Part shown: positions 17,961 to 25,253 of the stretch, piece after piece
How positions within the stretch are numbered: the first letter of the stretch is position 1
Layout of the letters: the number at the start of each line of letters is the position of its first letter
DNA from: a phage
Strand: one strand, 5' to 3'
DNA: 44,340 nucleotides
Assembly: GCA_030393635.1 (NCBI GenBank)
Contig: GCA_030393635.1_4352.1
Position numbers and translations under genes: made by a program
Notes under the pieces: generated by a model
Told to the model about the DNA's origin: nothing
Databases searched by the model: none
The model's input: the letters and a program-made list of their open reading frames with translations, nothing else

Positions 17961-18442
17961 ATTCGTGGAAACGTTGATTGCGCGGTTCCATAGGCTTTAA
18001 GGAAACATCCCAGCCCGTCGCCGTAGCAGCCATACAAATCAGGCAGATTGTTAATCAGGCACTGGTTCTCAGGGTCCTGGAACGGGGATTTCTCGGCGGT
18101 TGCCGTGAAAGTAATTGTCCAGTTAATGCCGTCTTCGGTGGACTCAGCGATGGTGGACGTAATGGTTACCTGATAATCCTGAATACCCATGCCGAAGTCA
18201 TGCGCCATCCAGAAACTTGACGCACCGCCATCGACTTTCTCAAGGAACGACAGAAACGCCTGCCGCCCTAGTGCTGAGGTAATCAGGGTTACGCTTATTG
18301 GGAACACGTCGTAATACGTGTCGCGACCCTGACGCACCCCGCCACCGGCTAAATCAACGCTCCAGACGTTGTTACGTCTGGTCATTGAGTAGCCTTTTGA
18401 CACCACCGGCTTAAGGCTACGTGGAAAAAATAAGTCAGTCAT
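17942..18442 (-). CDS. Minor tail protein (gpM-like)
   Basis: 166-aa ORF directly downstream of the tape measure gene. Confidence 0.5.
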   Translation of the reverse strand: MTDLFFPRSLKPVVSKGYSMTRRNNVWSVDLAGGGVRQGRDTYYDVFPISVTLITSALGRQAFLSFLEKVDGGASSFWMAHDFGMGIQDYQVTITSTIAESTEDGINWTITFTATAEKSPFQDPENQCLINNLPDLYGCYGDGLGCFLKAYGTAQSTFPRIWDPMQ

Positions 18443-20730
18443 TATTTGAACCCCGGCGCATTTCTTGTGGCCTTTCGGGCCTTGCTAATCTTACTGTTGC
18501 TGTTCTGCAAAGAGGCCGCCACTTGCTCTTCTATGATGATGCGCAAACGGCCTTCATCATCCTGCTCAGTGGATACGTTGCCGATTTGAGAACTCGTGTT
18601 GTTTACGATGGTAACATTAGACGGTCCAGAAGAAGACCCGTTTTGCCCCATAATTTCTTTCATCTGCTGCGCAGTTCGTACGCGAGATGCGCCTGCTGGC
18701 ATGATAACTTCTGGTTTACCACGTTCGGCGATGGTGGAAGCCTGCCCCGCGGATAACTGACCGCCCTGTTCACGGGCGGACCTGATAGCGGAAATCTGCG
18801 CCATACCCGCCCCAACGGCAGCGGCGGCAGCTACAGGAGCCAGGAACGGACCGACTACAGGGATAGCTGCTGTGGACTTGTACGCCTCAATAGCTGCGGT
18901 GTACGTGGCTATGGTGGCCTGTACGATAGCAAATGCCTTGTACGCACCAGAAGCCTCACCCAACGCAGACCCGATGTTTGAAGCCATGTTACCAAAGGCG
19001 GTTGCCGTTGCGTCGGCACGCTTTGTGGCGTACTGCTCGTTGATGGCGTTAAGCGCAGCCTGATACTGCTTCTCGCTAATCAGACCCTGCTCACGGTACT
19101 TATCGGCTACCGCCAGTTTCTGCTGTTCCTGGATGTCTAGAAGCTCAAGTTCAGTAGCGTTCTGGCCCATAATCTGAGCCATGAAGTCGTCACCTTTCTG
19201 CTGCTTTTCCTGGGCTTCTTTCTGGCGTTTATCCAGTTCATCTTGGCGTTTTTGCCCTGCTTCAAGGACAATAGCCGTTTTTGCTTGCTCGTATTCTTTC
19301 AGAGACAACGCGCCCTGGCTGTAGAACTCTTTTGCCTTAGCAAGTTTCTGCTTTTCCTGCGCGTCAATAGCCTTTATCTCGTCGTTGTTCTGACGGGCCA
19401 AAGTGTCGAGATAATCTTGCGCCTGATTCCGCAACTGCTCAGCTTTCTTAGCGGCTGCTTTTGCCGCTTTATCGTCGGCGTTTCCGGTGTTGCCAGTTCC
19501 GCCTTTTTTATTAACAAGGCTGGCTAAGTCAATTTCTTGCTTCTTGCGCTCGTCGTACTGCTTGCGCTGTTCCTCAATTTCTTTCTTACGCTGTTTAGAC
19601 CTGTTGGTAATGGCCTGTGATTCGGCCTCTGCGCGTTTTATGCTGGCGGCGTATGCGGCGTCGGCTTCTGCGGTCAGGTTTTTAAATGTTAGCGCTGCCG
19701 TTTTGCTCGGGTCGAACACGTCGGCAAGGGTCTGGCCTAACGCTACGGCGTAATCGTCAATGCGCTGGAACCACGCGATAACCTCGTGGAATGTCTGCTG
19801 GATGTCAGGCAGCCACTCTCGGATGGCGTCAGGGATAGTTCCCAGCGAGTCGGACATATCCACGGATTTGTCCTCGGTATCGTATGCCAGGTCGTTTAAG
19901 GCATCAGAAATAAACTTGAACGATTCATTGAACAGTGTCACCCAATCCTGGAGTGTAGCGGCTATCTCATTAGACGCGATGGCGTCGGTAAGCGCCGTGA
20001 TAGCGTCTTCTGCCTTCGCGGCTTGCTCACCTACGGCGTCGCCGAAACCTGATTGCGCCACCGCAAGTACAAGGCCGTCAAAGGAGTCCGCGAGGCTAGA
20101 TAACTGCCCGTCAAGGGTTTTCGAACGCGTTTCCATCGCCCCGGCGAAATCAGTGTTACCGATGTTTAGCAGGTATTTCTGAATCTCTTCGGAGTTCTTC
20201 TTAACGGTAGTCGTTACGCCACGGAACGTGAAAGAAACCGTATCCGCCTGTTGCGACGACTTGATACCAAACTCTTTCAGTCGCTCAAACTCAAAGGTAC
20301 TGGCGTCCGCCACGGCCTCAATCATCTGATTAAGGTCTTTACCCATAGCGGCCGCGGTATTGCCGTAAGAGATTAACGCCTCTTTGCTTGGGTTCAGGCC
20401 GAGGGCCACCAGCTTAGTAAAGCCTTCCACCGCCTGGTTAAGACCATATGGGGTTTCTTTTGCGAACTGTTGCAGGACGCTGAAAGCCTTAGCCGCGTTA
20501 TCAGCGCTCCCGGTCATCGTGATGAGGCCGGAATTCAGCTTATCGAAGTTGCGCTGGGAGTCCACCAGCGCACTGAACACCTGCTTAGCGGTTTCCAGAC
20601 TGACGACGGCAGCAGCAGCGGCCCCAGCCGCCTTAGTAAGCCCGTTCAGTTGTGATGTGGTTTTATCGACGCCGGTCGATGATACTCGTACTATCAAGCT
20701 AGCGGTATCAGCCATGATTTCTACCTTCAA
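18442..20730 (-). CDS. Tail tape measure protein
   Basis: 762-aa ORF, strongly alpha-helical and A/Q/K/E-rich, downstream of the chaperone pair. Confidence 0.85.
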   Translation of the reverse strand: MKVEIMADTASLIVRVSSTGVDKTTSQLNGLTKAAGAAAAAVVSLETAKQVFSALVDSQRNFDKLNSGLITMTGSADNAAKAFSVLQQFAKETPYGLNQAVEGFTKLVALGLNPSKEALISYGNTAAAMGKDLNQMIEAVADASTFEFERLKEFGIKSSQQADTVSFTFRGVTTTVKKNSEEIQKYLLNIGNTDFAGAMETRSKTLDGQLSSLADSFDGLVLAVAQSGFGDAVGEQAAKAEDAITALTDAIASNEIAATLQDWVTLFNESFKFISDALNDLAYDTEDKSVDMSDSLGTIPDAIREWLPDIQQTFHEVIAWFQRIDDYAVALGQTLADVFDPSKTAALTFKNLTAEADAAYAASIKRAEAESQAITNRSKQRKKEIEEQRKQYDERKKQEIDLASLVNKKGGTGNTGNADDKAAKAAAKKAEQLRNQAQDYLDTLARQNNDEIKAIDAQEKQKLAKAKEFYSQGALSLKEYEQAKTAIVLEAGQKRQDELDKRQKEAQEKQQKGDDFMAQIMGQNATELELLDIQEQQKLAVADKYREQGLISEKQYQAALNAINEQYATKRADATATAFGNMASNIGSALGEASGAYKAFAIVQATIATYTAAIEAYKSTAAIPVVGPFLAPVAAAAAVGAGMAQISAIRSAREQGGQLSAGQASTIAERGKPEVIMPAGASRVRTAQQMKEIMGQNGSSSGPSNVTIVNNTSSQIGNVSTEQDDEGRLRIIIEEQVAASLQNSNSKISKARKATRNAPGFK

Positions 20731-21103
20731 AGATTGCTTCTAAGCCCATGATAATGTCTATCTCGAACAGGCTAAGCTGTTTTTGCGTAACATCGAGATA
20801 GGCTTTCAGGTCTTGCCACGTAACGGATTCTCTTGCAAACAATACTACAGCGTCCTCGCGCACGTGTCGCGTAAACTTAATGTCGCAATACGTCTCAAAG
20901 GTGGATATAAAAAGGGGCGGGCATTCCGGCCCACCCCGTCGCGCTGCACGTTTTTTCTTATCGATTACACCCATCGCGATAAGCGCCTGTTCGTGTCCGT
21001 CGGCTATAGAATCAAACTCTCTGATTTTATGCTTATCCACAAACTCGTAGGTGGCGAACCTGTACAGCGCGTCTACTTTTCCTGTAATGCTTTGCGCTCG
21101 GCG
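20708..21103 (-). CDS. Tail assembly chaperone T-frame (possible G-T -1 frameshift extension)
   Basis: ORF 20708..21040 is in the -1 frame relative to the upstream chaperone and stays open upstream to 21103, overlapping its last codons; AGGAAAAG lies in the overlap. Confidence 0.45.
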   Translation of the reverse strand, partial: RRAQSITGKVDALYRFATYEFVDKHKIREFDSIADGHEQALIAMGVIDKKKRAARRGGPECPPLFISTFETYCDIKFTRHVREDAVVLFARESVTWQDLKAYLDVTQKQLSLFEIDIIMGLEAIFEGRNHG

Positions 21104-21489
21104 TTATGGAACGCCGCCACCTGTGTACCCAATGCCTTGAACTGATCCAGCAATTTGTTAAGCGCTTCCTTAGAGAAAGGCTCATCAAAGCTCCAGCCGT
21201 TTACGACTTCCGACGCGAGTTGTCGGTTGAGGTCTTCCGCCAGTTCGTTAACCGCCAGGTTATATTCAGTATAGTCGCCGGATTCTTTGGAGGCTTTTTC
21301 CAGTTCTTCAAAACGCGCCAACCCGCGGCGGTACGCGATAATGAAAGCCCGCCCCGCTTTAACGGCGGCATCCGCATCAGGGCCTACAACATTAAGCCAC
21401 TCACCGGAGTCTTCGCCGTTTGGTAGCAGAATCGGCATCTTCTTGCCTACCAGTGCTTTCTCTTCGAAATAAAAATCAGAAAGTTTCAT
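21073..21489 (-). CDS. Tail assembly chaperone (gpG-like)
   Basis: 138-aa ORF immediately upstream of the T-frame ORF and tape measure gene. Confidence 0.55.
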   Translation of the reverse strand: MKLSDFYFEEKALVGKKMPILLPNGEDSGEWLNVVGPDADAAVKAGRAFIIAYRRGLARFEELEKASKESGDYTEYNLAVNELAEDLNRQLASEVVNGWSFDEPFSKEALNKLLDQFKALGTQVAAFHNAERKALQEK

Positions 21490-21596
21490 TCTTTAATCCT
21501 TTGGTTAAGAGGTTACTGGTTGATGGTGTTGCGCCAGACGGGAACCACCCGCTTTTCGTGTGCGACACTAGGCGCAAAATTATTCTATCACATTAC

Positions 21597-21626
21597 TTGC
21601 GCGCCCCAATATAATAGGGTACTATT
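21597..21626 (+). promoter_or_regulatory. Promoter with embedded palindromic operator, upstream of the Imm-like gene
   Basis: TTGCGC, 17-bp spacer, TACTAT; palindrome AATAG-GGTA-CTATT (21613-21626). Confidence 0.6.
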
Positions 21627-21655: not shown

Positions 21656-21847
21656 ATGTCAAGTTTACCGGTTTCCCTAATTCTATTTGCGCTGCTCGCT
21701 TATTTCGCACCTTTCCTGGTTGCGTATTTCCGCAACCATAAAGCGAAGTTGGCGATATTCATGGCCAATCTGTTTCTTGGTTGGATTCTGCTGCCGTGGG
21801 TCTTTATTTTAATCTGGGCATGCAACTCGAATGTTAACGAGAAGTGA
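21656..21847 (+). CDS. Superinfection-immunity-like small membrane protein
   Basis: 63-aa ORF with two transmembrane segments and NLFLGWILLPW, reminiscent of Imm-type proteins. Confidence 0.5.
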   Translation: MSSLPVSLILFALLAYFAPFLVAYFRNHKAKLAIFMANLFLGWILLPWVFILIWACNSNVNEK

Positions 21848-21885
21848 GCTAGTATAGGACAAATCCTAAACACGAGGAAGTAAGC

Positions 21886-23016
21886 ATGGCCCGGAAGAAA
21901 ATAACCGACGAACAATTACAGGAAGAATTGAACGCCGGAGTTAAAACTATCGATATAGCCCGTAAATATGGCATCTCAGACCGCGTTATTCGTATCCGTA
22001 AAGCGAAGCTGGCTAAGAAAGGCGTAGGCCACGGGCGCGACGTTAGCCACCTTGTCCCGGACGGCTACAAGATTAAAGGAACGTCGTCACTTGTAGACGA
22101 GTTCGGCAACACTAAGTTGCAATGGGTTAAGACCGATACTGACGCCGAACGTCAGGTCGAGTTAATGAAAGCCGTAATTGAGGGCATGAAGTCAGAGATT
22201 ACGCCCGTTGCTCCTGTTAAAGCCACCCGTTCCAAACGCGACGATAAACTACTCAATCTTTACACCGTGTCTGACTTTCATCTCGGTATGCTGGCCTGGG
22301 CCGACGAGAGCGGCGACGACTGGGATATGAAAATCGCGGAGGGCCTGTTCTCCCGATGGTTCGACGAGGCGTTTCAGAAAGCGCCGGACGCTGGGACCGG
22401 AGTTATTAACCTGCTAGGCGACTTCGCGCACTTCGATAGTCTGGTTGCCGTTACACCTGCAAGCGGTCACGCTCTTGACGCCGACACCCGTTATCAGAAA
22501 CTTGTCCGCTACATGATTCGTATGGTCCGCCGTGTTGTCGATATGGCGCTGGTTAAGCATAAAACTGTTCGCTTGCTTATTGTGCAAGGGAACCACGACG
22601 AAAGCGGAATGATTTGGTTAGCTGAGATGTTCAGTACGCTGTACGACAATGAGCCTCGTGTGTTCGTCGATACGTCGCCGGATGTTTACAAGATGGTGCA
22701 ACACGGCAAAACGACGCTGTTCTTTCATCACGGCCATAAGGCGCGATTCGACGCTATCGAACCGGTTATGATTGCCAAGTTCCGCAAAGCGTTCGGCGAG
22801 AGTGTTTACAGCTACGCCCACGTAGGCCACCTGCACCACCAGAAGGTTGTAGAAAGCCGTAACATGATTGTTGAGCAACACCGCACCTTAGCGGCCAAAG
22901 ACGCCTACGCCTCCCGTGGCGGATGGATGTCGGGCCGTAGTGCAAATGTAATTACTTATAGCGCCGAATACGGCGAGGTCGCGCGTTTAACTATTTCACC
23001 GGAGATGCTGGGATGA
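21886..23016 (+). CDS. Calcineurin-like metallophosphoesterase with N-terminal HTH
   Basis: 376-aa ORF; metal-binding GNHDE, FHHGHKA and HVGHLHH motifs; N-terminal IDIARKYGISDRVIRIRK HTH-like segment. Confidence 0.65.
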   Translation: MARKKITDEQLQEELNAGVKTIDIARKYGISDRVIRIRKAKLAKKGVGHGRDVSHLVPDGYKIKGTSSLVDEFGNTKLQWVKTDTDAERQVELMKAVIEGMKSEITPVAPVKATRSKRDDKLLNLYTVSDFHLGMLAWADESGDDWDMKIAEGLFSRWFDEAFQKAPDAGTGVINLLGDFAHFDSLVAVTPASGHALDADTRYQKLVRYMIRMVRRVVDMALVKHKTVRLLIVQGNHDESGMIWLAEMFSTLYDNEPRVFVDTSPDVYKMVQHGKTTLFFHHGHKARFDAIEPVMIAKFRKAFGESVYSYAHVGHLHHQKVVESRNMIVEQHRTLAAKDAYASRGGWMSGRSANVITYSAEYGEVARLTISPEMLG

Positions 23017-23498
23017 AAGATATTGTAATTTTCGATTTAGACGGGACATTAGCAGATGGTACACATCGTTTACACCTGCTGCCGAAAGATAACTACGGTG
23101 AAACATGGGCTTGGAAGCCTTTTAACATGGCGTGCAAAGATGATGAGCCAATTAGAGATAATATCGAACTATGTAACGCCCTTAATCGGCGATACGCCGT
23201 TATTATTTTAACCGGTCGCAGTGATGATGCAGAAAAAGAAACCAGAATGTGGCTGCAGCGCCACCGCGTCGAATTTTATAAGCTAATCATGCGCAGCAAA
23301 CACGACAACAGAAAAGACATCGTAATTAAAGAAGAGGTGTTACGTGCTATCGGGCTGGAAAGAATATTGTGCGCATTCGACGACTCTCCGGCGGTAATAA
23401 AGCATTTCCGCGGACTCGGTATAACCACTCACGCGGTTACTGAATACGACTGTAACGGGAATTCTACACACTTAAAATCACACGGGAGCGATAAATAA
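23013..23498 (+). CDS. HAD-superfamily phosphatase / nucleotidase
   Basis: 161-aa ORF; N-terminal FDLDGTL (DxDGT) catalytic motif. Confidence 0.65.
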   Translation: MKDIVIFDLDGTLADGTHRLHLLPKDNYGETWAWKPFNMACKDDEPIRDNIELCNALNRRYAVIILTGRSDDAEKETRMWLQRHRVEFYKLIMRSKHDNRKDIVIKEEVLRAIGLERILCAFDDSPAVIKHFRGLGITTHAVTEYDCNGNSTHLKSHGSDK

Positions 23499-24052
23499 TG
23501 GCTAAGGTAATTATTCTTAATGGCCCGGCGGGTTGTGGGAAAGACACACTTGCTATGGCGCTGGTAGAAATGGGCTTTGCGAAGGGAACTACCAGTTTCA
23601 AGAATCCAATGTTCAATATCGCTCTGGCGGCGTTAGGCCCGGATGCTTACCACGAGTTTCTCGACGGCTACGACGACCGGGCGCGGAAAGAAAAGCCAGA
23701 AGGTTTCCTTAATGGTTTGTCGCGACGTCAGTTCATGATTGCTATCTCTGAACAGTTCATTAAACCGGTTCTAGGCAGCGATTATTTCGGTAAGTATCTT
23801 GCTGAAAACTTGCCCGACGGCGATGACGTTTTTGTAGTGTCGGATGGCGGGTTCGCCAGCGAAGTAGCCCCTATCGTCGCCGCAGGTCATGATGTAAGAA
23901 TCGTTCGCTTGCACCGAGACGGCTATACGTTTGACGGTGATAGCCGCGGTTACCTGTACGATGTTGGCGGTGATGAAGATTATGATGTATACATCATACC
24001 TGGTGACGTTAAATCTAACGTTATAGACATTGCTTTAAAATTAGGTTTGTAA
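23498..24052 (+). CDS. Deoxynucleoside monophosphate kinase (T4 gp1-like)
   Basis: 184-aa ORF; P-loop GPAGCGKDT and YDVYIIPGD segment resembling T4 dNMP kinase. Confidence 0.6.
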   Translation: MAKVIILNGPAGCGKDTLAMALVEMGFAKGTTSFKNPMFNIALAALGPDAYHEFLDGYDDRARKEKPEGFLNGLSRRQFMIAISEQFIKPVLGSDYFGKYLAENLPDGDDVFVVSDGGFASEVAPIVAAGHDVRIVRLHRDGYTFDGDSRGYLYDVGGDEDYDVYIIPGDVKSNVIDIALKLGL

Positions 24053-24053
24053 G

Positions 24054-24084
24054 AAAAAGGCCCCAAACGGGGCCTTAGTTTTAT
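24054..24084. terminator. Bidirectional intrinsic terminator
   Basis: AGGCCCC-aaac-GGGGCCT stem with flanking A- and T-runs between convergent genes. Confidence 0.7.
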
Positions 24085-25253
24085 GCGTAGGTGATACGCT
24101 GGATGACAATAGACGACTGGTACTGGTTGCCAGTAGCCTGGCCTTCAATGGACTGAGTGATTGACTCAGGTCCGCCAATCTCTGGTGTAACCGCCGTGAG
24201 TTCTGCACGTTTCAAACTGAAAGACATAGCCCCGTTTACCCCCGCCAGAATAGAGTTAATCTCCACCTGTTGCTCGTTGATAAACTTCTGAATCATCGCC
24301 ATGTCGTACAGCTTGCCGGAGATGGAGAAGGTGTTAGCCGCGCGGCTACGCTCCACAAACGCTACGTTAGTGTTGCCGAGTTCGAACTGTGCGGACGCGC
24401 TGTTATCGTTGGTGATGGTCAGGCTGTCGCAACGCAACGGCGTAGACCCATCGAACACAGAAACGTCAACCGAGGAGAACGGCTCATCACCAAACGTAAC
24501 GGAAGAGAAGTCGGAACCAGACGGCGCGGAGGTGAGAATCTCCTGGCTGCGCCCGATGAATGGGAAGCTGCCAGTTACCATCGCATTAACTGCCTGTTCA
24601 ACGGTGAAACCAGAAACTTCCACGCCTTTGGTTAGGGTGTACGCGTCAGTCCCACCACATTGGCCTTTGTACCATGTGAGAATAGAGAACGTCTTACACT
24701 GGCTGCCGGTTTCCAGTTTGTCGCCTGTCTTAGCCTTACTGGTTTTTGTCTCGACGGTCAGGGGGTGTTGGATACCTGCACCAGTAACAACCGTAGCCGT
24801 TACCGCGGTGACGATAAACGGTTTTGCGTTGTCGCCGGTTAAGTCGGTAAACGCAATCAGGTCGCCCACTTCAACGCCGTCGGTAATAAAGCTGCCATCA
24901 GCACGGGTAAACGTCTTACCCGCCGGTGCGACGGTAATAGATAGCCCTGACAGAGAAACACCGGATTGCCACGTAGAGCCTAAAGCACCCGCCAGCCAGT
25001 CGTCCTGGCTTTTCGAGCTAAGCTCAATAGCGTATTCTCCGCTAACCTGCTTGTTGCCGGTGCGGATGGACGTAGTTTCGCGGCTGCCGTCCAGTTCATT
25101 GGAGGTAAGCGTGTCGCGGGTAATGGCAGGAACGCCGCCGGTGTTGCGCAACGGCGACCATACCGGGTTACTTGGTGTTACACCCGGGGTCACTTCCACC
25201 ACATAGAATTGCGCGGTATTCGCGCCCTTAAAAGGAGTTGTTGCCATATTCAC
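24081..25253 (-). CDS. Major tail protein
   Basis: 390-aa ORF upstream of the chaperone genes and downstream of connector-type genes. Confidence 0.55.
   Translation of the reverse strand: MNMATTPFKGANTAQFYVVEVTPGVTPSNPVWSPLRNTGGVPAITRDTLTSNELDGSRETTSIRTGNKQVSGEYAIELSSKSQDDWLAGALGSTWQSGVSLSGLSITVAPAGKTFTRADGSFITDGVEVGDLIAFTDLTGDNAKPFIVTAVTATVVTGAGIQHPLTVETKTSKAKTGDKLETGSQCKTFSILTWYKGQCGGTDAYTLTKGVEVSGFTVEQAVNAMVTGSFPFIGRSQEILTSAPSGSDFSSVTFGDEPFSSVDVSVFDGSTPLRCDSLTITNDNSASAQFELGNTNVAFVERSRAANTFSISGKLYDMAMIQKFINEQQVEINSILAGVNGAMSFSLKRAELTAVTPEIGGPESITQSIEGQATGNQYQSSIVIQRITYA

What the first reader, a model, noticed from the sequence alone, without database searches (positions are those of the whole stretch)
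20708..21489. Candidate -1 frameshift joining the tail assembly chaperone to the downstream ORF
The ORF downstream of the gpG-like chaperone is in the -1 frame relative to it and remains open upstream to 21103, overlapping the last nine or so chaperone codons. The overlap contains AGGAAAAG (mRNA CAG GAA AAG UAG), where tRNA-Lys could re-pair AAG to AAA. This matches the conserved G/GT arrangement upstream of tape measure genes, but the heptamer is not the canonical X_XXY_YYZ.
Basis: partly seen in the sequence, partly recalled or inferred. Interest (0 to 1): 0.45.

Follow-up and report, generated by a model that had tools for sequence, protein, structure and literature searches.

The report
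Tail chaperone G/GT frameshift, already annotated
This is the usual two-in-one tail-assembly chaperone gene of a coliphage, where a few ribosomes slip back one base at the last lysine codon to make a longer protein. It is real and strongly conserved, but close relatives already have it annotated.

Summary
On the minus strand, a 138-aa gpG-like chaperone gene (21489..21073) ends CAG GAA AAG UAG. The -1 frame is open from 21103 to 20708 and encodes a T-type chaperone domain just upstream of the tape measure gene. The window is a Kagunavirus genome, 99.7% identical to phiWAO78-1.

In 76 distinct relatives whose G proteins are down to about 45% identical, the string A_AAG_UA is invariant. Flanking third codon positions vary freely. 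The penultimate codon changes among shift-prone types: GAA, GCA, GUA, UCA, GGA (canonical G_GGA_AAG) and AAA (canonical A_AAA_AAG). In some relatives the overlap is only 10 nt, which places the shift in the last two codons.

T codons 5-12 evolve as coding sequence although no start codon is conserved upstream of them. I found no conserved downstream structure and no conserved Shine-Dalgarno (SD) sequence.

The best explanation is a lambda G/GT-type -1 frameshift on a non-canonical NNA_AAG site next to a stop codon. It is not new: the identical fusion junction (...LQEK|VDAL...) is deposited for phage K1G (ADA82267.1) and others. No experimental proof was found.

Two side observations seem more interesting: a covarying int-alpA-like structured RNA leader upstream of G, and a terminator-like hairpin inside T.

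The parts
21073..21489 (-). Gene G: gpG-like tail assembly chaperone, 138 aa, ATG at 21489, stop TAG at 21075..21073. A Shine-Dalgarno sequence AAGGA lies at 21501..21497.
   Evidence: ORF and translation. Pfam PF08748 Phage_TAC_4 at 29 bits against a 21.1 cut-off. phrog_15027 positions 1-138 and phrog_313. Annotated as tail assembly chaperone in relatives.
21076..21082 (-). Shift site G_GAA_AAG. The core is the tetramer A_AAG at 21079..21076, where tRNA-Lys re-pairs from AAG to AAA. The G at 21076 is read twice.
   Evidence: Sequence. A_AAG is invariant in 76/76 stop-anchored distinct relatives and present in 85/87; the two exceptions are explained. A 10-nt minimal overlap in L076/L081 confines the shift to the last two codons. 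A_AA.G is the most shift-prone tetramer in E. coli (PMC4066793).
21073..21075 (-). G stop codon UAG, immediately 3' of the shift codon. Its U is the 3' context base, and U and A are the last two bases of the first T codon (GUA, Val).
   Evidence: UAG or UAA directly follows AAG in 85 of 86 intact distinct relatives; L020 has A_AAG_UUA_UAG. The Val codon is always GUA in the 76 stop-anchored relatives (GUU in L020, which was left out of that set), although other Val codons nearby vary.
21073..21103 (-). Overlap of the G frame and the -1 frame. The -1 frame is closed upstream by TAA at 21106..21104.
   Evidence: The overlap contains no ATG/GTG/TTG in the -1 frame (RRAQSITGK).
20708..21076 (-). 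T segment: 122 codons in the -1 frame (VDALYRFATYEF...FEGRNHG), stop TGA at 20710..20708. It is expressed only as the C-terminal part of the 260-aa GT fusion (21489..21076 joined to 21076..20708).
   Evidence: Pfam PF23812 Phage_TAC_18 at 67.5 bits. phrog_15027 positions 134-259. K138, V139, A141 and L142 are invariant across the junction in a 9-sequence alignment at 45-55% identity. Codon-position entropies are 0.68/0.95/1.39 for T codons 5-12. The identical junction is deposited for relatives.
18442..20715 (-). Tape measure protein gene. Its ATG at 20715 overlaps the T stop codon (ATGGCTGA).
   Evidence: phrog_1538 E=1e-192. K1G annotation has the same 8-nt overlap. Sequence.
20905..20937 (-). 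Side feature inside T: a terminator-like hairpin GGGGUGGGC-CGGAAU-GCCCGCCCC (20937..20914) followed by UUUUUAUAU (20913..20905), about 139 nt 3' of the shift site.
   Evidence: Terminator scan. Stem about -19 kcal/mol; the 56-nt context folds at -22.6 kcal/mol. A hairpin plus U-run is at the same place in 44/80 distinct relatives. Covariation score 0.253 against 0.128 in shuffles, 0/500 shuffles as high. More stable than synonymous recodings at p<0.05 in 14 of 47 sequences. Function not shown.
21514..21578 (-). Side feature: a structured RNA in the leader of G, resembling Rfam int-alpA (RF02996). An outer stem (21575-71 with 21535-31) encloses two hairpins. An extended -10-like TGATAGAAT lies just upstream, at about 21590..21582.
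   Evidence: cmscan gives 34.1 bits in the window (gathering 35.8). The same position scores 36.6 and 35.8 bits in L028 and L029, which pass. In RNAalifold, 9 of 11 pairs keep pairing through double changes. The promoter reading is my own inspection, not a tool hit.

Best explanation
Genes G and T form a lambda-type G/GT tail assembly chaperone pair. Most ribosomes translate G (138 aa) and terminate at UAG 21075..21073.

A minority slip one base backwards while decoding the last sense codon. tRNA-Lys moves from AAG (21078-76) to AAA (21079-77). tRNA-Glu on GAA may move with it to GGA, which leaves a central G.U pair. The ribosome then reads GUA GAC GCG CUG... and makes a 260-aa GT protein (...ALQEK-VDALYRF...) ending at 20708.

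By analogy with lambda, the G part would bind the tape measure protein and the T part would recruit the tail tube protein. Neither product would be in the virion.

Shown here: the frames, the family membership of both halves, the nucleotide-level conservation of A_AAG_UA, the lack of a conserved independent start, and the lack of a conserved RNA stimulator.

Inferred: that slippage happens at all, its efficiency (probably about a few per cent or less, as for stimulator-less X_XXA_AAG sites), the protein functions, and the route of slippage. The route could be tandem A/P-site slippage, or P-site slippage of tRNA-Lys while the stop codon waits in the A site.
For: 1. Architecture. G (PF08748) is followed by a -1 ORF (PF23812) and then the tape measure gene. 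One PHROG profile spans both halves.

2. Site conservation. With anchoring on the G stop codon only, window positions equivalent to 21079..21074 (AAAGUA) have zero entropy in 76 distinct sequences. Elsewhere, 53 third codon positions have a median entropy of 1.52 bits and only 2 are invariant. Lys is always AAG here, although AAA and AAG are used about equally nearby (159 against 160).

3. Penultimate codon. It varies: GAA 52, GCA 16, GUA 4, AAA 2, GGA 1, UCA 1. It always ends in A. This includes the canonical G_GGA_AAG in RP180 and A_AAA_AAG in L101/L102.

4. Preceding base. When the penultimate codon is GAA, the base before it is G in 52/52 sequences, across six different codons (CAG, CUG, UCG, AUG, GCG, UUG). 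This fits P-site re-pairing to GGA.

5. Short overlaps. The overlap is only 10 nt in L076/L081, so the shift must occur within C_GCA_AAG.

6. No independent start. 38/77 sequences have no start codon in the first 15 T codons. The window's GTG is GTC/GTT/GTA/ATA/ATC elsewhere. T codons 5-12 show coding periodicity with synonymous variation.

7. Known biochemistry. A_AA.G is the best -1 tetramer in E. coli, and X_XXA_AAG heptamers are the best heptamers (PMC4066793). NNA_AAG sites are used by IS1222 and occur in B. subtilis cdd (PMC5009743). The lambda G/GT mechanism is described.

8. tRNA supply. The phage encodes no tRNA, so the host's single tRNA-Lys decodes the site.

9. Independent annotation. 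Other annotators deposited exactly this fusion: ADA82267.1/YP_009168804.1 (K1G), QNO11738.1, YP_010749081.1 ('frameshift product'), QZA71161.1.
Against: - No experimental evidence for the fusion protein in this phage family was found in the searchable literature.
- The heptamer is not X_XXY_YYZ. One published annotation of a relative with the identical site states there is 'no canonical slippery sequence' and calls T a separate hypothetical protein (PMC6776780; sequence).
- Without stimulators, A_AA.G tetramers were barely above background in a reporter (about 0.15%), and the best heptamers gave about 0.3%. No conserved stimulatory structure or SD sequence was found here. Efficiency could therefore be very low.
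- The invariant V-x-A-L codons right after the junction are invariant at the nucleotide level. They do not by themselves prove translation. That evidence comes from codons 5-12.
- The relatives are phylogenetically related, so counts of sequences overstate the number of independent events.
Confidence: 0.85

Rival explanations
1. T is an independent gene, translated from its own start. Candidates are GTG 21040, ATG 20974 (as annotated in phiWAO78-1), or a Leu codon 9 nt after the stop, as annotated in SETP7, Jersey, Bas74 and Shashou with AGGA as the ribosome binding site (RBS).
For: Many records annotate T as a separate CDS. In CAG_GAA-type sites the slippery region contains AGGA, which Shashou's annotators marked as an RBS 12 nt upstream of a TTG.
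Against: - Annotated starts disagree between records: +6, +99 and +168 nt after the G stop.
- The TTG is CTG in 65 of 76 distinct sequences, including the window.
- The window's GTG is a non-start codon in 61 of 76.
- No SD sequence precedes the GTG.
- AGGA is lost wherever the preceding codon is CUG, UCG or AUG, or the penultimate codon is GCA or GUA.
- Protein-coding conservation starts upstream of every candidate start.
- The PHROG profile and deposited proteins are fusions.
Confidence: 0.06
2. Termination-reinitiation. Ribosomes finish G at UAG and restart a few nucleotides away on a non-canonical codon in the -1 frame, giving a free T protein coupled to G translation.
For: The stop codon abuts the T frame in 85 of 86 relatives. 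That is also the geometry of coupled restarts.
Against: No start-type codon is conserved within 12 codons of the stop. GUA, RNN and GCG are not starts, and CUG is not a normal bacterial start. The invariance of the A preceding AAG, and of AAG over AAA, has no role in reinitiation but is exactly what slippage needs. Canonical slippery heptamers appear at the same position in some relatives.
Confidence: 0.04
3. The frame change is made by RNA polymerase slippage (transcriptional) rather than by the ribosome.
For: The site contains a short A run (GGAAAAG). Two relatives have six As (GCAAAAAAG).
Against: Four As is far shorter than the runs known to support productive transcriptional slippage (my knowledge; reviewed in PMC5009743). 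Relatives with GCA_AAG, GUA_AAG or UCA_AAG have only three As. What is conserved is the frame-specific A_AAG, not the run length.
Confidence: 0.02
4. Within ribosomal frameshifting, the operative event may be single P-site slippage of peptidyl-tRNA-Lys on A_AAG while the slowly decoded stop codon occupies the A site (a 'shifty stop'). This is a sub-mechanism of the best explanation, not an alternative to it, and it contrasts with lambda-like tandem slippage.
For: - The stop codon is adjacent in 85 of 86 relatives, and the Val codon is held at GUA.
- The penultimate codon is free to be GCA, GUA or UCA, which cannot re-pair in the -1 frame.
- The 'shifty stop' concept is in the literature (Weiss et al. 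1987, cited in PMC5009743).
Against: - The G before GAA is conserved in 52/52 sequences, which argues that the P-site tRNA-Glu re-pairs, i.e. tandem slippage.
- L020 keeps A_AAG_U, but its stop codon is one codon later.
- The invariant U could act only as the favourable 3' context base. The order U>C>A>G is from Bertrand et al. 2002, recalled from memory; only the existence of a 3'-context effect is.
Confidence: 0.35

Closest known systems
Phage lambda G/GT tail assembly chaperones (Levin, Hendrix & Casjens 1993; Xu, Hendrix & Duda 2004, 2013, 2014, as summarised in PMC5009743)
   Same: - Two overlapping ORFs lie just upstream of the tape measure gene, with the second in the -1 frame and lacking its own start.
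- The slip involves tRNA-Lys on AAG.
- No RNA stimulator is evident.
- The result is a long fusion protein plus an abundant short product.
   Different: - The heptamer is G_GAA_AAG, not G_GGA_AAG.
- The shift codon is the very last sense codon, abutting the stop.
- G and T belong to other Pfam families (Phage_TAC_4 and Phage_TAC_18).
- The tail tube gene is not adjacent: a block of opposite-strand genes about 2.4 kb long (21656..24052) lies between it and G.
- Neither the G:GT ratio nor the function has been tested.
Escherichia phage K1G ORF22A/ORF22B (ADA82267.1, YP_009168804.1), and the frameshift products annotated in fPoEco01/fKuEco01 and Pantoea phage AH01
   Same: These are orthologous genes with the same site (CAG GAA AAG UAG). 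The deposited fusion sequence has the junction ...LQEK|VDAL..., identical to the one I derived for a slip at A_AAG.
   Different: The window's own fusion sequence differs by a few residues in G and is not itself in the protein collection. Its nearest relative, phiWAO78-1, annotates T as a truncated separate ORF.
NNA_AAG hexanucleotide / A_AAG tetranucleotide -1 sites (IS1222 G_CGA_AAG, B. subtilis cdd A_CGA_AAG; Licznar et al. 2003; Sharma et al. 2014)
   Same: Slippage rests on tRNA-Lys moving from AAG to AAA, with a 5' codon that need not re-pair perfectly. The family here uses GAA, GCA, GUA and UCA as the 5' codon.
   Different: Those cases rely on stimulators: an upstream SD sequence in cdd, and a pseudoknot in the IS3-family reporters (SD detail from my knowledge). 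None is detectable here. Here a stop codon directly follows the site.
E. coli dnaX and IS911 A_AAA_AAG
   Same: The same A-site codon and host tRNA-Lys are involved. Two relatives (L101, L102) carry exactly A_AAA_AAG at this position.
   Different: dnaX uses an upstream SD sequence and a downstream hairpin and shifts at about 50%. Nothing comparable is present here.

Membership tests
Lambda-like G/GT tail assembly chaperone pair expressed by -1 programmed frameshift (Xu et al. 2004) | Two ORFs immediately upstream of the tape measure gene, on the same strand | tested here: met
   G is 21489..21073, T is 21076..20708 and the tape measure gene is 20715..18442, all on the minus strand.
Lambda-like G/GT tail assembly chaperone pair expressed by -1 programmed frameshift (Xu et al. 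2004) | The pair lies between the major tail (tube) gene and the tape measure gene | tested here: inconclusive
   The gene order is kept: tube gene 25253..24081 (PF18906), then G. However, about 2.4 kb of plus-strand genes (21656..24052: superinfection immunity, exonuclease, kinase and others) is inserted between them, as in all relatives.
Lambda-like G/GT tail assembly chaperone pair expressed by -1 programmed frameshift (Xu et al. 2004) | The second ORF is in the -1 frame, overlaps the end of the first, and has no conserved start or RBS of its own | tested here: met
   Frame and 31-nt overlap. No conserved start; coding signal begins upstream of the candidate starts.
Lambda-like G/GT tail assembly chaperone pair expressed by -1 programmed frameshift (Xu et al. 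2004) | A conserved slippery sequence in the overlap | tested here: met
   NNA_AAG followed by U is invariant in 76/76 sequences. The overlap shrinks to 10 nt in some relatives.
Lambda-like G/GT tail assembly chaperone pair expressed by -1 programmed frameshift (Xu et al. 2004) | Both halves belong to tail assembly chaperone protein families | tested here: met
   PF08748 at 29.0 bits (cut-off 21.1). PF23812 at 67.5 bits (cut-off 27). phrog_15027 covers both halves. No related solved structure and no NCBIfam model.
Lambda-like G/GT tail assembly chaperone pair expressed by -1 programmed frameshift (Xu et al. 2004) | A fusion protein is made at a low fixed ratio to G and is required for tail assembly | not testable with these tools
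   This needs protein detection and genetics. No such data were found for Guernseyvirinae.
Canonical tandem-slippage heptamer X_XXY_YYZ | Both the P-site and A-site tRNAs keep two standard pairs after a -1 shift (XXY to XXX, YYZ to YYY) | tested here: not met
   The window has G_GAA_AAG. The A site fits (AAG to AAA), but in the P site GAA to GGA puts a G.U pair at the middle position. The feature is met in relatives RP180 (G_GGA_AAG) and L101/L102 (A_AAA_AAG).
A_AAG tetramer / NNA_AAG hexamer -1 sites of bacteria | In-frame AAG preceded by A, decoded by a single tRNA-Lys (UUU-type anticodon) in the host | tested here: met
   A_AAG is in the G frame. The phage has no tRNA gene. That E. coli has a single tRNA-Lys is stated in PMC5009743.
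A_AAG tetramer / NNA_AAG hexamer -1 sites of bacteria | An accompanying stimulator (upstream SD-like sequence or downstream structure) | tested here: not met
   Downstream 60-nt folds have a mean z-score of +0.06 over 77 sequences. The consensus structure energy is -0.06 kcal/mol. The window's 81-nt fold has z = +0.10. No conserved SD sequence lies upstream. Only the adjacent stop codon and the 3' U are conserved.
Rfam RF02996 int-alpA RNA (side feature, leader of G) | Score at or above the family's gathering threshold, with the consensus three-helix fold | tested here: inconclusive
   The window scores 34.1 bits against 35.8 (below threshold). Relatives L028 (36.6) and L029 (35.8) pass at the same position. 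The fold is supported by covariation in 9 of 11 pairs. The genomic context (upstream of a tail chaperone gene) is not the int/alpA context of the family name.

The most novel reading that the evidence does not exclude
The G-GT-tape measure unit may be an RNA-level control cassette rather than only a frameshift site. It would have three parts:
- a covarying int-alpA-like structured RNA at the very 5' end of the transcript (21578..21514);
- the A_AAG/stop shift site;
- a GC-rich hairpin plus U-run (20937..20905) about 139 nt further on, inside the T segment, which most ribosomes never translate.

If that hairpin is a working intrinsic terminator, read-through into the tape measure and distal tail genes would depend on one of two things. 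Either a frameshifted ribosome follows the polymerase and melts the hairpin, or the leader RNA modifies the polymerase. That would tie tape measure dosage to GT synthesis.

A more modest reading is also open. This phage family may use stop-codon-assisted single-tRNA slippage rather than lambda-type tandem slippage.
Probability: 0.07. Interest if true: 0.75.

Novelty: already known. Interest (0 to 1): 0.2.

Why it matters
For annotation, it settles an inconsistency. Records of this phage subfamily variously call T a truncated hypothetical protein, a second chaperone with an invented start, or a frameshift product. One paper states that no slippery sequence exists. The comparative data show a single conserved NNA_AAG_UAR site, so the joined CDS (21489..21076, 21076..20708) is the right model for this genome.

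For recoding biology, it is a clean natural series. At one homologous position, evolution swaps between canonical heptamers and A_AAG hexamers, always next to a stop codon and without an RNA stimulator. That makes it useful material for testing how much a stop codon and a 3' U contribute to -1 slippage.

The frameshift itself is expected and would not surprise a specialist.

Tried and rejected
- **Downstream stimulatory structure: rejected.** Per-sequence folds of the 60 nt after the site have a mean z-score of +0.06. RNAalifold on 23 diverse sequences gives -0.06 kcal/mol with 3 trivial pairs. The window's 81-nt fold has z = +0.10.
- **Upstream SD-like stimulator: rejected.** AGGA occurs only where the codons are CAG_GAA, and nothing is conserved 10-14 nt upstream.
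- **Independent start for T: rejected**.
- **Transcriptional slippage:** judged unlikely because of the run length.
- **My first entropy analysis was circular.** It selected loci with a regex that contained the motif. I repeated it with anchoring on the G stop codon only and report that version.
- **Searches that added little or nothing.**
  - The large protein search with the fused sequence gave only 7 hits.
  - The PDB profile search found no relative.
  - NCBIfam has no model.
  - The papers most likely to discuss the site in this family or motif class (Anany et al. 2015, PMID 25663216; Licznar et al. 2003, PMID 12970189) are not held. What I say about them beyond the cited reviews is from memory and marked as such.
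- **The distant homolog in Pseudomonas phage Almagne (L032)** has no A_AAG at the end of its G gene. I did not pursue it.


Full report
**What is there**

The genes in question lie on the minus strand. An ORF of 138 codons runs from ATG 21489 to TAG 21075..21073. Its last codons read CAG GAA AAG UAG.

The frame that is -1 relative to it is closed by TAA at 21106..21104. It is open from 21103 and runs to TGA 20710..20708. The tape measure gene follows. Its ATG at 20715 overlaps that stop codon as ATGGCTGA.

The first ORF matches Pfam Phage_TAC_4 above threshold, and the -1 ORF matches Phage_TAC_18 well above threshold. A single PHROG profile of 259 positions is covered by the first ORF at positions 1-138 and by the second at positions 134-259. 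The profile itself was therefore built from fused proteins.

**Where the window comes from**

The 1-kb region is 99.7% identical to Escherichia phage phiWAO78-1 and 93-96% identical to many Kagunavirus genomes (K1G, K1ind1-3, RP180 and others; subfamily Guernseyvirinae). The G protein finds more than 500 phage records by tblastn. Most are Salmonella Jerseyvirus genomes at about 50-56% identity.

**Is it already known?**

Yes, at the level of annotation.
- RefSeq and GenBank K1G carry a two-piece CDS (ORF22B) alongside ORF22A.
- fPoEco01 carries a CDS noted as 'putative tail assembly chaperone frameshift product'.
- Pantoea phage AH01 also has a joined CDS.

I built the fusions that a -1 slip at A_AAG would give for these three phages. 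All three exact sequences are in the public collection under ADA82267.1/YP_009168804.1, YP_010749081.1 and QZA71161.1. The depositors therefore chose the same junction (...QEK|V...).

Annotation is inconsistent, however. phiWAO78-1, Otaku, EcoPhCCP1 and VSiP annotate a truncated separate ORF. SETP7, Jersey, Bas70, Bas74 and Shashou annotate a separate ORF starting 6 nt after the stop codon. 37P2 annotates nothing.

[quoted passage not shown] Yet Shashou has the identical CAG GAA AAG UAG.

**Comparative test of the site**

I collected 112 related loci from annotated phage records and IMG/VR contigs. I located the end of G in each by protein alignment, without using the motif.

Of 87 distinct sequences, 85 end NNA AAG UAR. 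The two exceptions are explained:
- L020 has GCA AAG UUA UAG, so the same A_AAG_U sits one codon earlier. Its -1 frame still reads K-V-I-A-L-Y.
- L049 has an indel upstream in G, so the anchor was wrong. Its site is present.

In 76 distinct stop-anchored 170-mers, the six bases AAAGUA have zero entropy. The 53 third codon positions around them have a median entropy of 1.52 bits. Lys is always AAG at the site, while AAA and AAG are used equally nearby.

The penultimate codon varies but always ends in A: GAA 52, GCA 16, GUA 4, AAA 2, GGA 1, UCA 1. RP180 thereby has the lambda heptamer G_GGA_AAG, and two metagenomic phages have the dnaX heptamer A_AAA_AAG.

Where the codon is GAA, the preceding base is G in 52 of 52 sequences, although the preceding codon is any of CAG, CUG, UCG, AUG, GCG or UUG. 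This is what is expected if tRNA-Glu re-pairs on GGA.

The overlap of the two frames ranges from 208 nt down to 10 nt. In L076 and L081 the -1 frame opens only two codons before the stop, so the shift must occur on C_GCA_AAG.

A first version of the entropy analysis used a motif-containing regex to pick loci and was circular. The figures quoted for invariance come from the motif-independent repeat.

**Does T have its own start?**

No conserved one.
- 38 of 77 distinct sequences have no ATG, GTG or TTG in the first 15 T codons.
- The window's only candidate, GTG 21040 (T codon 13), is GTG in 15 of 76 sequences and GTC, GTT, GTA, ATA, ATC or ATT in the rest. It has no SD sequence.
- The TTG used by several annotators (codon 4) is CTG in 65 of 76, including the window.

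Upstream of all these candidates, T codons 5-12 (Y-x-F-A-x-W-x-F) show the signature of a translated sequence. Mean entropy by codon position is 0.68, 0.95 and 1.39, with synonymous alternation such as TAC/TAT, TTC/TTT and GCC/GCG/GCT/GCA.

In a nine-sequence alignment at 45-55% identity, K138, V139, A141 and L142 across the junction are invariant.

**Stimulators**

None was found.
- The 60 nt after the site fold no better than shuffles (mean z +0.06 over 77 sequences).
- The consensus structure of 23 diverse sequences has essentially no energy (-0.06 kcal/mol).
- The window's own 81 nt give z = +0.10.
- Nothing SD-like is conserved upstream.

What is conserved beyond A_AAG is the adjacent stop codon UAR and the bases GCG YUG that follow.

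**How it most likely works**

In E. coli, A_AA.G is by far the most shift-prone -1 tetramer, and X_XXA_AAG heptamers are the most shift-prone heptamers. This is because the single tRNA-Lys pairs weakly with AAG (PMC4066793; PMC5009743). NNA_AAG sites are used naturally: IS1222 uses one, and one occurs in B. subtilis cdd. Their efficiency depends on the 5' codon. The phage supplies no tRNA of its own.

I therefore conclude that a small fraction of ribosomes slip -1 on (G_GA)A_AAG and continue with GUA GAC GCG CUG... to make a 260-aa GT protein. The rest terminate and make G.

By analogy with lambda, G and the G part of GT would coat the tape measure protein, and T would recruit the tube protein.

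Efficiency cannot be computed. Reporter values for stimulator-less sites of this kind are 0.15-0.3%, rising to a few per cent in the best 3' context. Lambda's natural ratio is about 1 in 30.

Two sub-mechanisms remain open. The conserved G before GAA favours tandem slippage. The freedom of the penultimate codon and the near-universal adjacent stop codon favour P-site slippage of tRNA-Lys while the stop codon awaits release factor. From memory, Bertrand et al. (2002) found U to be the best base 3' of X_XXA_AAG. If so, the conserved U would be explained without invoking the stop codon.

**Rivals**

Independent initiation, termination-reinitiation and transcriptional slippage are each contradicted by the pattern of conservation. 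Details are under the rival explanations. What would overturn the main conclusion is failure to detect a G-T fusion protein.

**Side observations within or next to the finding**

*1. A terminator-like hairpin inside T.* The minus strand carries a 9-bp GC-rich hairpin followed by UUUUUAUAU at 20937..20905.
- A hairpin plus U-run sits at the same place in 44 of 80 distinct relatives from several clades. The outer pairs change together: AAGGGGC/GCCCCUU, GAGGGGC/GCCCCUC, ACGGGGC/GCCCCGU.
- On a 24-sequence alignment the named helix has more pairing and covariation than 500 of 500 shuffles and than slid controls.
- It is more stable than synonymous recodings at p<0.05 in 14 of 47 distinct sequences.
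- It is absent from the SETP7/Shashou-like and Jersey-like clades.
- Part of the stem is forced by the conserved G-P-E-C-P peptide.

The evidence is therefore suggestive rather than strong. Because most ribosomes leave the mRNA at the G stop codon, a terminator here could act on transcription into the tape measure gene. I did not test this.

*2. A structured leader RNA upstream of G.* The leader matches Rfam int-alpA RNA over the full model at 21578..21514. The window is just below the gathering score. Two relatives are at or above it, and the element is in the same position in Kagunavirus, Jerseyvirus and Pantoea phage loci. RNAalifold on 19 diverse leaders recovers three helices, and 9 of 11 pairs are kept through double substitutions. 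An extended -10-like TGATAGAAT just upstream suggests that the element forms the 5' end of the transcript. This is my reading, not a tool result. Its function is unknown.

*3. Split tail genes.* The tail tube gene and G are separated by a block of opposite-strand genes in this whole subfamily.

**Verdict**

Its residual value is twofold. It corrects inconsistent annotation, and it offers a natural allelic series of A_AAG-type sites abutting a stop codon. The two RNA elements noticed in passing are less expected than the frameshift itself.

Noticed in passing
window 20905..20937, minus strand (inside the T segment): There is an intrinsic-terminator-like element: a 9-bp GC-rich hairpin (about -19 kcal/mol) followed by UUUUUAUAU, about 139 nt 3' of the frameshift site. 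It lies in mRNA that most ribosomes never translate. A hairpin plus U-run occurs at the same position in 44/80 distinct relatives, with apparently compensatory outer-stem changes. It is absent from the SETP7/Shashou-like and Jersey-like clades. It could attenuate transcription into the tape measure gene; this was not tested.
   Followed up: partly
window 21514..21578, minus strand (leader of gene G); same position in L001, L022-L024, L027-L029: A conserved structured RNA resembles Rfam int-alpA (RF02996). It scores 34.1 bits here against a gathering score of 35.8, and 36.6 and 35.8 bits in two relatives. It has three helices, and 9 of 11 pairs covary across 19 diverse leaders. The context, upstream of a tail chaperone gene in lytic siphophages, is not the int/alpA context of the family name. 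Function unknown.
   Followed up: partly
window about 21582..21615, both strands: This looks like a divergent promoter region. A plus-strand sigma-70-like site (ATCACA-17-TATAAT, 10 of 12 matches, 21587..21615) faces the superinfection-immunity gene. A minus-strand extended -10-like TGATAGAAT (about 21590..21582) lies just upstream of the structured leader. It is conserved as TGNTAGAAT in several relatives. That part is by eye; the promoter scan did not call it.
   Followed up: no
window 21656..24052, plus strand: A block of opposite-strand genes separates the tail tube gene (25253..24081) from G-GT-tape measure. It includes a 63-aa superinfection immunity-like protein, a DNA repair exonuclease/metallophosphoesterase, a polynucleotide kinase-like protein and others. 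The tail genes are therefore split into at least two transcription units, in this phage and in all relatives inspected.
   Followed up: no
window 21067..21062 (GCGCUG, the T codons Ala-Leu that follow the variable codon after the G stop): The bases GCG YUG, starting 6 nt after the first base of the stop codon, are invariant at their synonymous positions in 76/76 relatives; only C/U varies at the first Leu position. This could be a preference for common codons, or part of the 3' context of the shift site. Unexplained.
   Followed up: no
L049 (IMGVR_UViG_638275545_000001): The G gene of this relative is interrupted by a frame-breaking indel around ...NGWSLDDEF..., while the shift site and T are intact. 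It is probably a sequencing error in an old assembly.
   Followed up: no
L032 (Pseudomonas phage Almagne, OM982619): This distant G homolog (about 30% identity) also has a -1 ORF of about 94 codons before its tape measure gene, but no A_AAG at the end of G (the end reads ...CCC GGG CCG AAU UCC AAC UAG). Its shift site, if any, is of a different kind.
   Followed up: no
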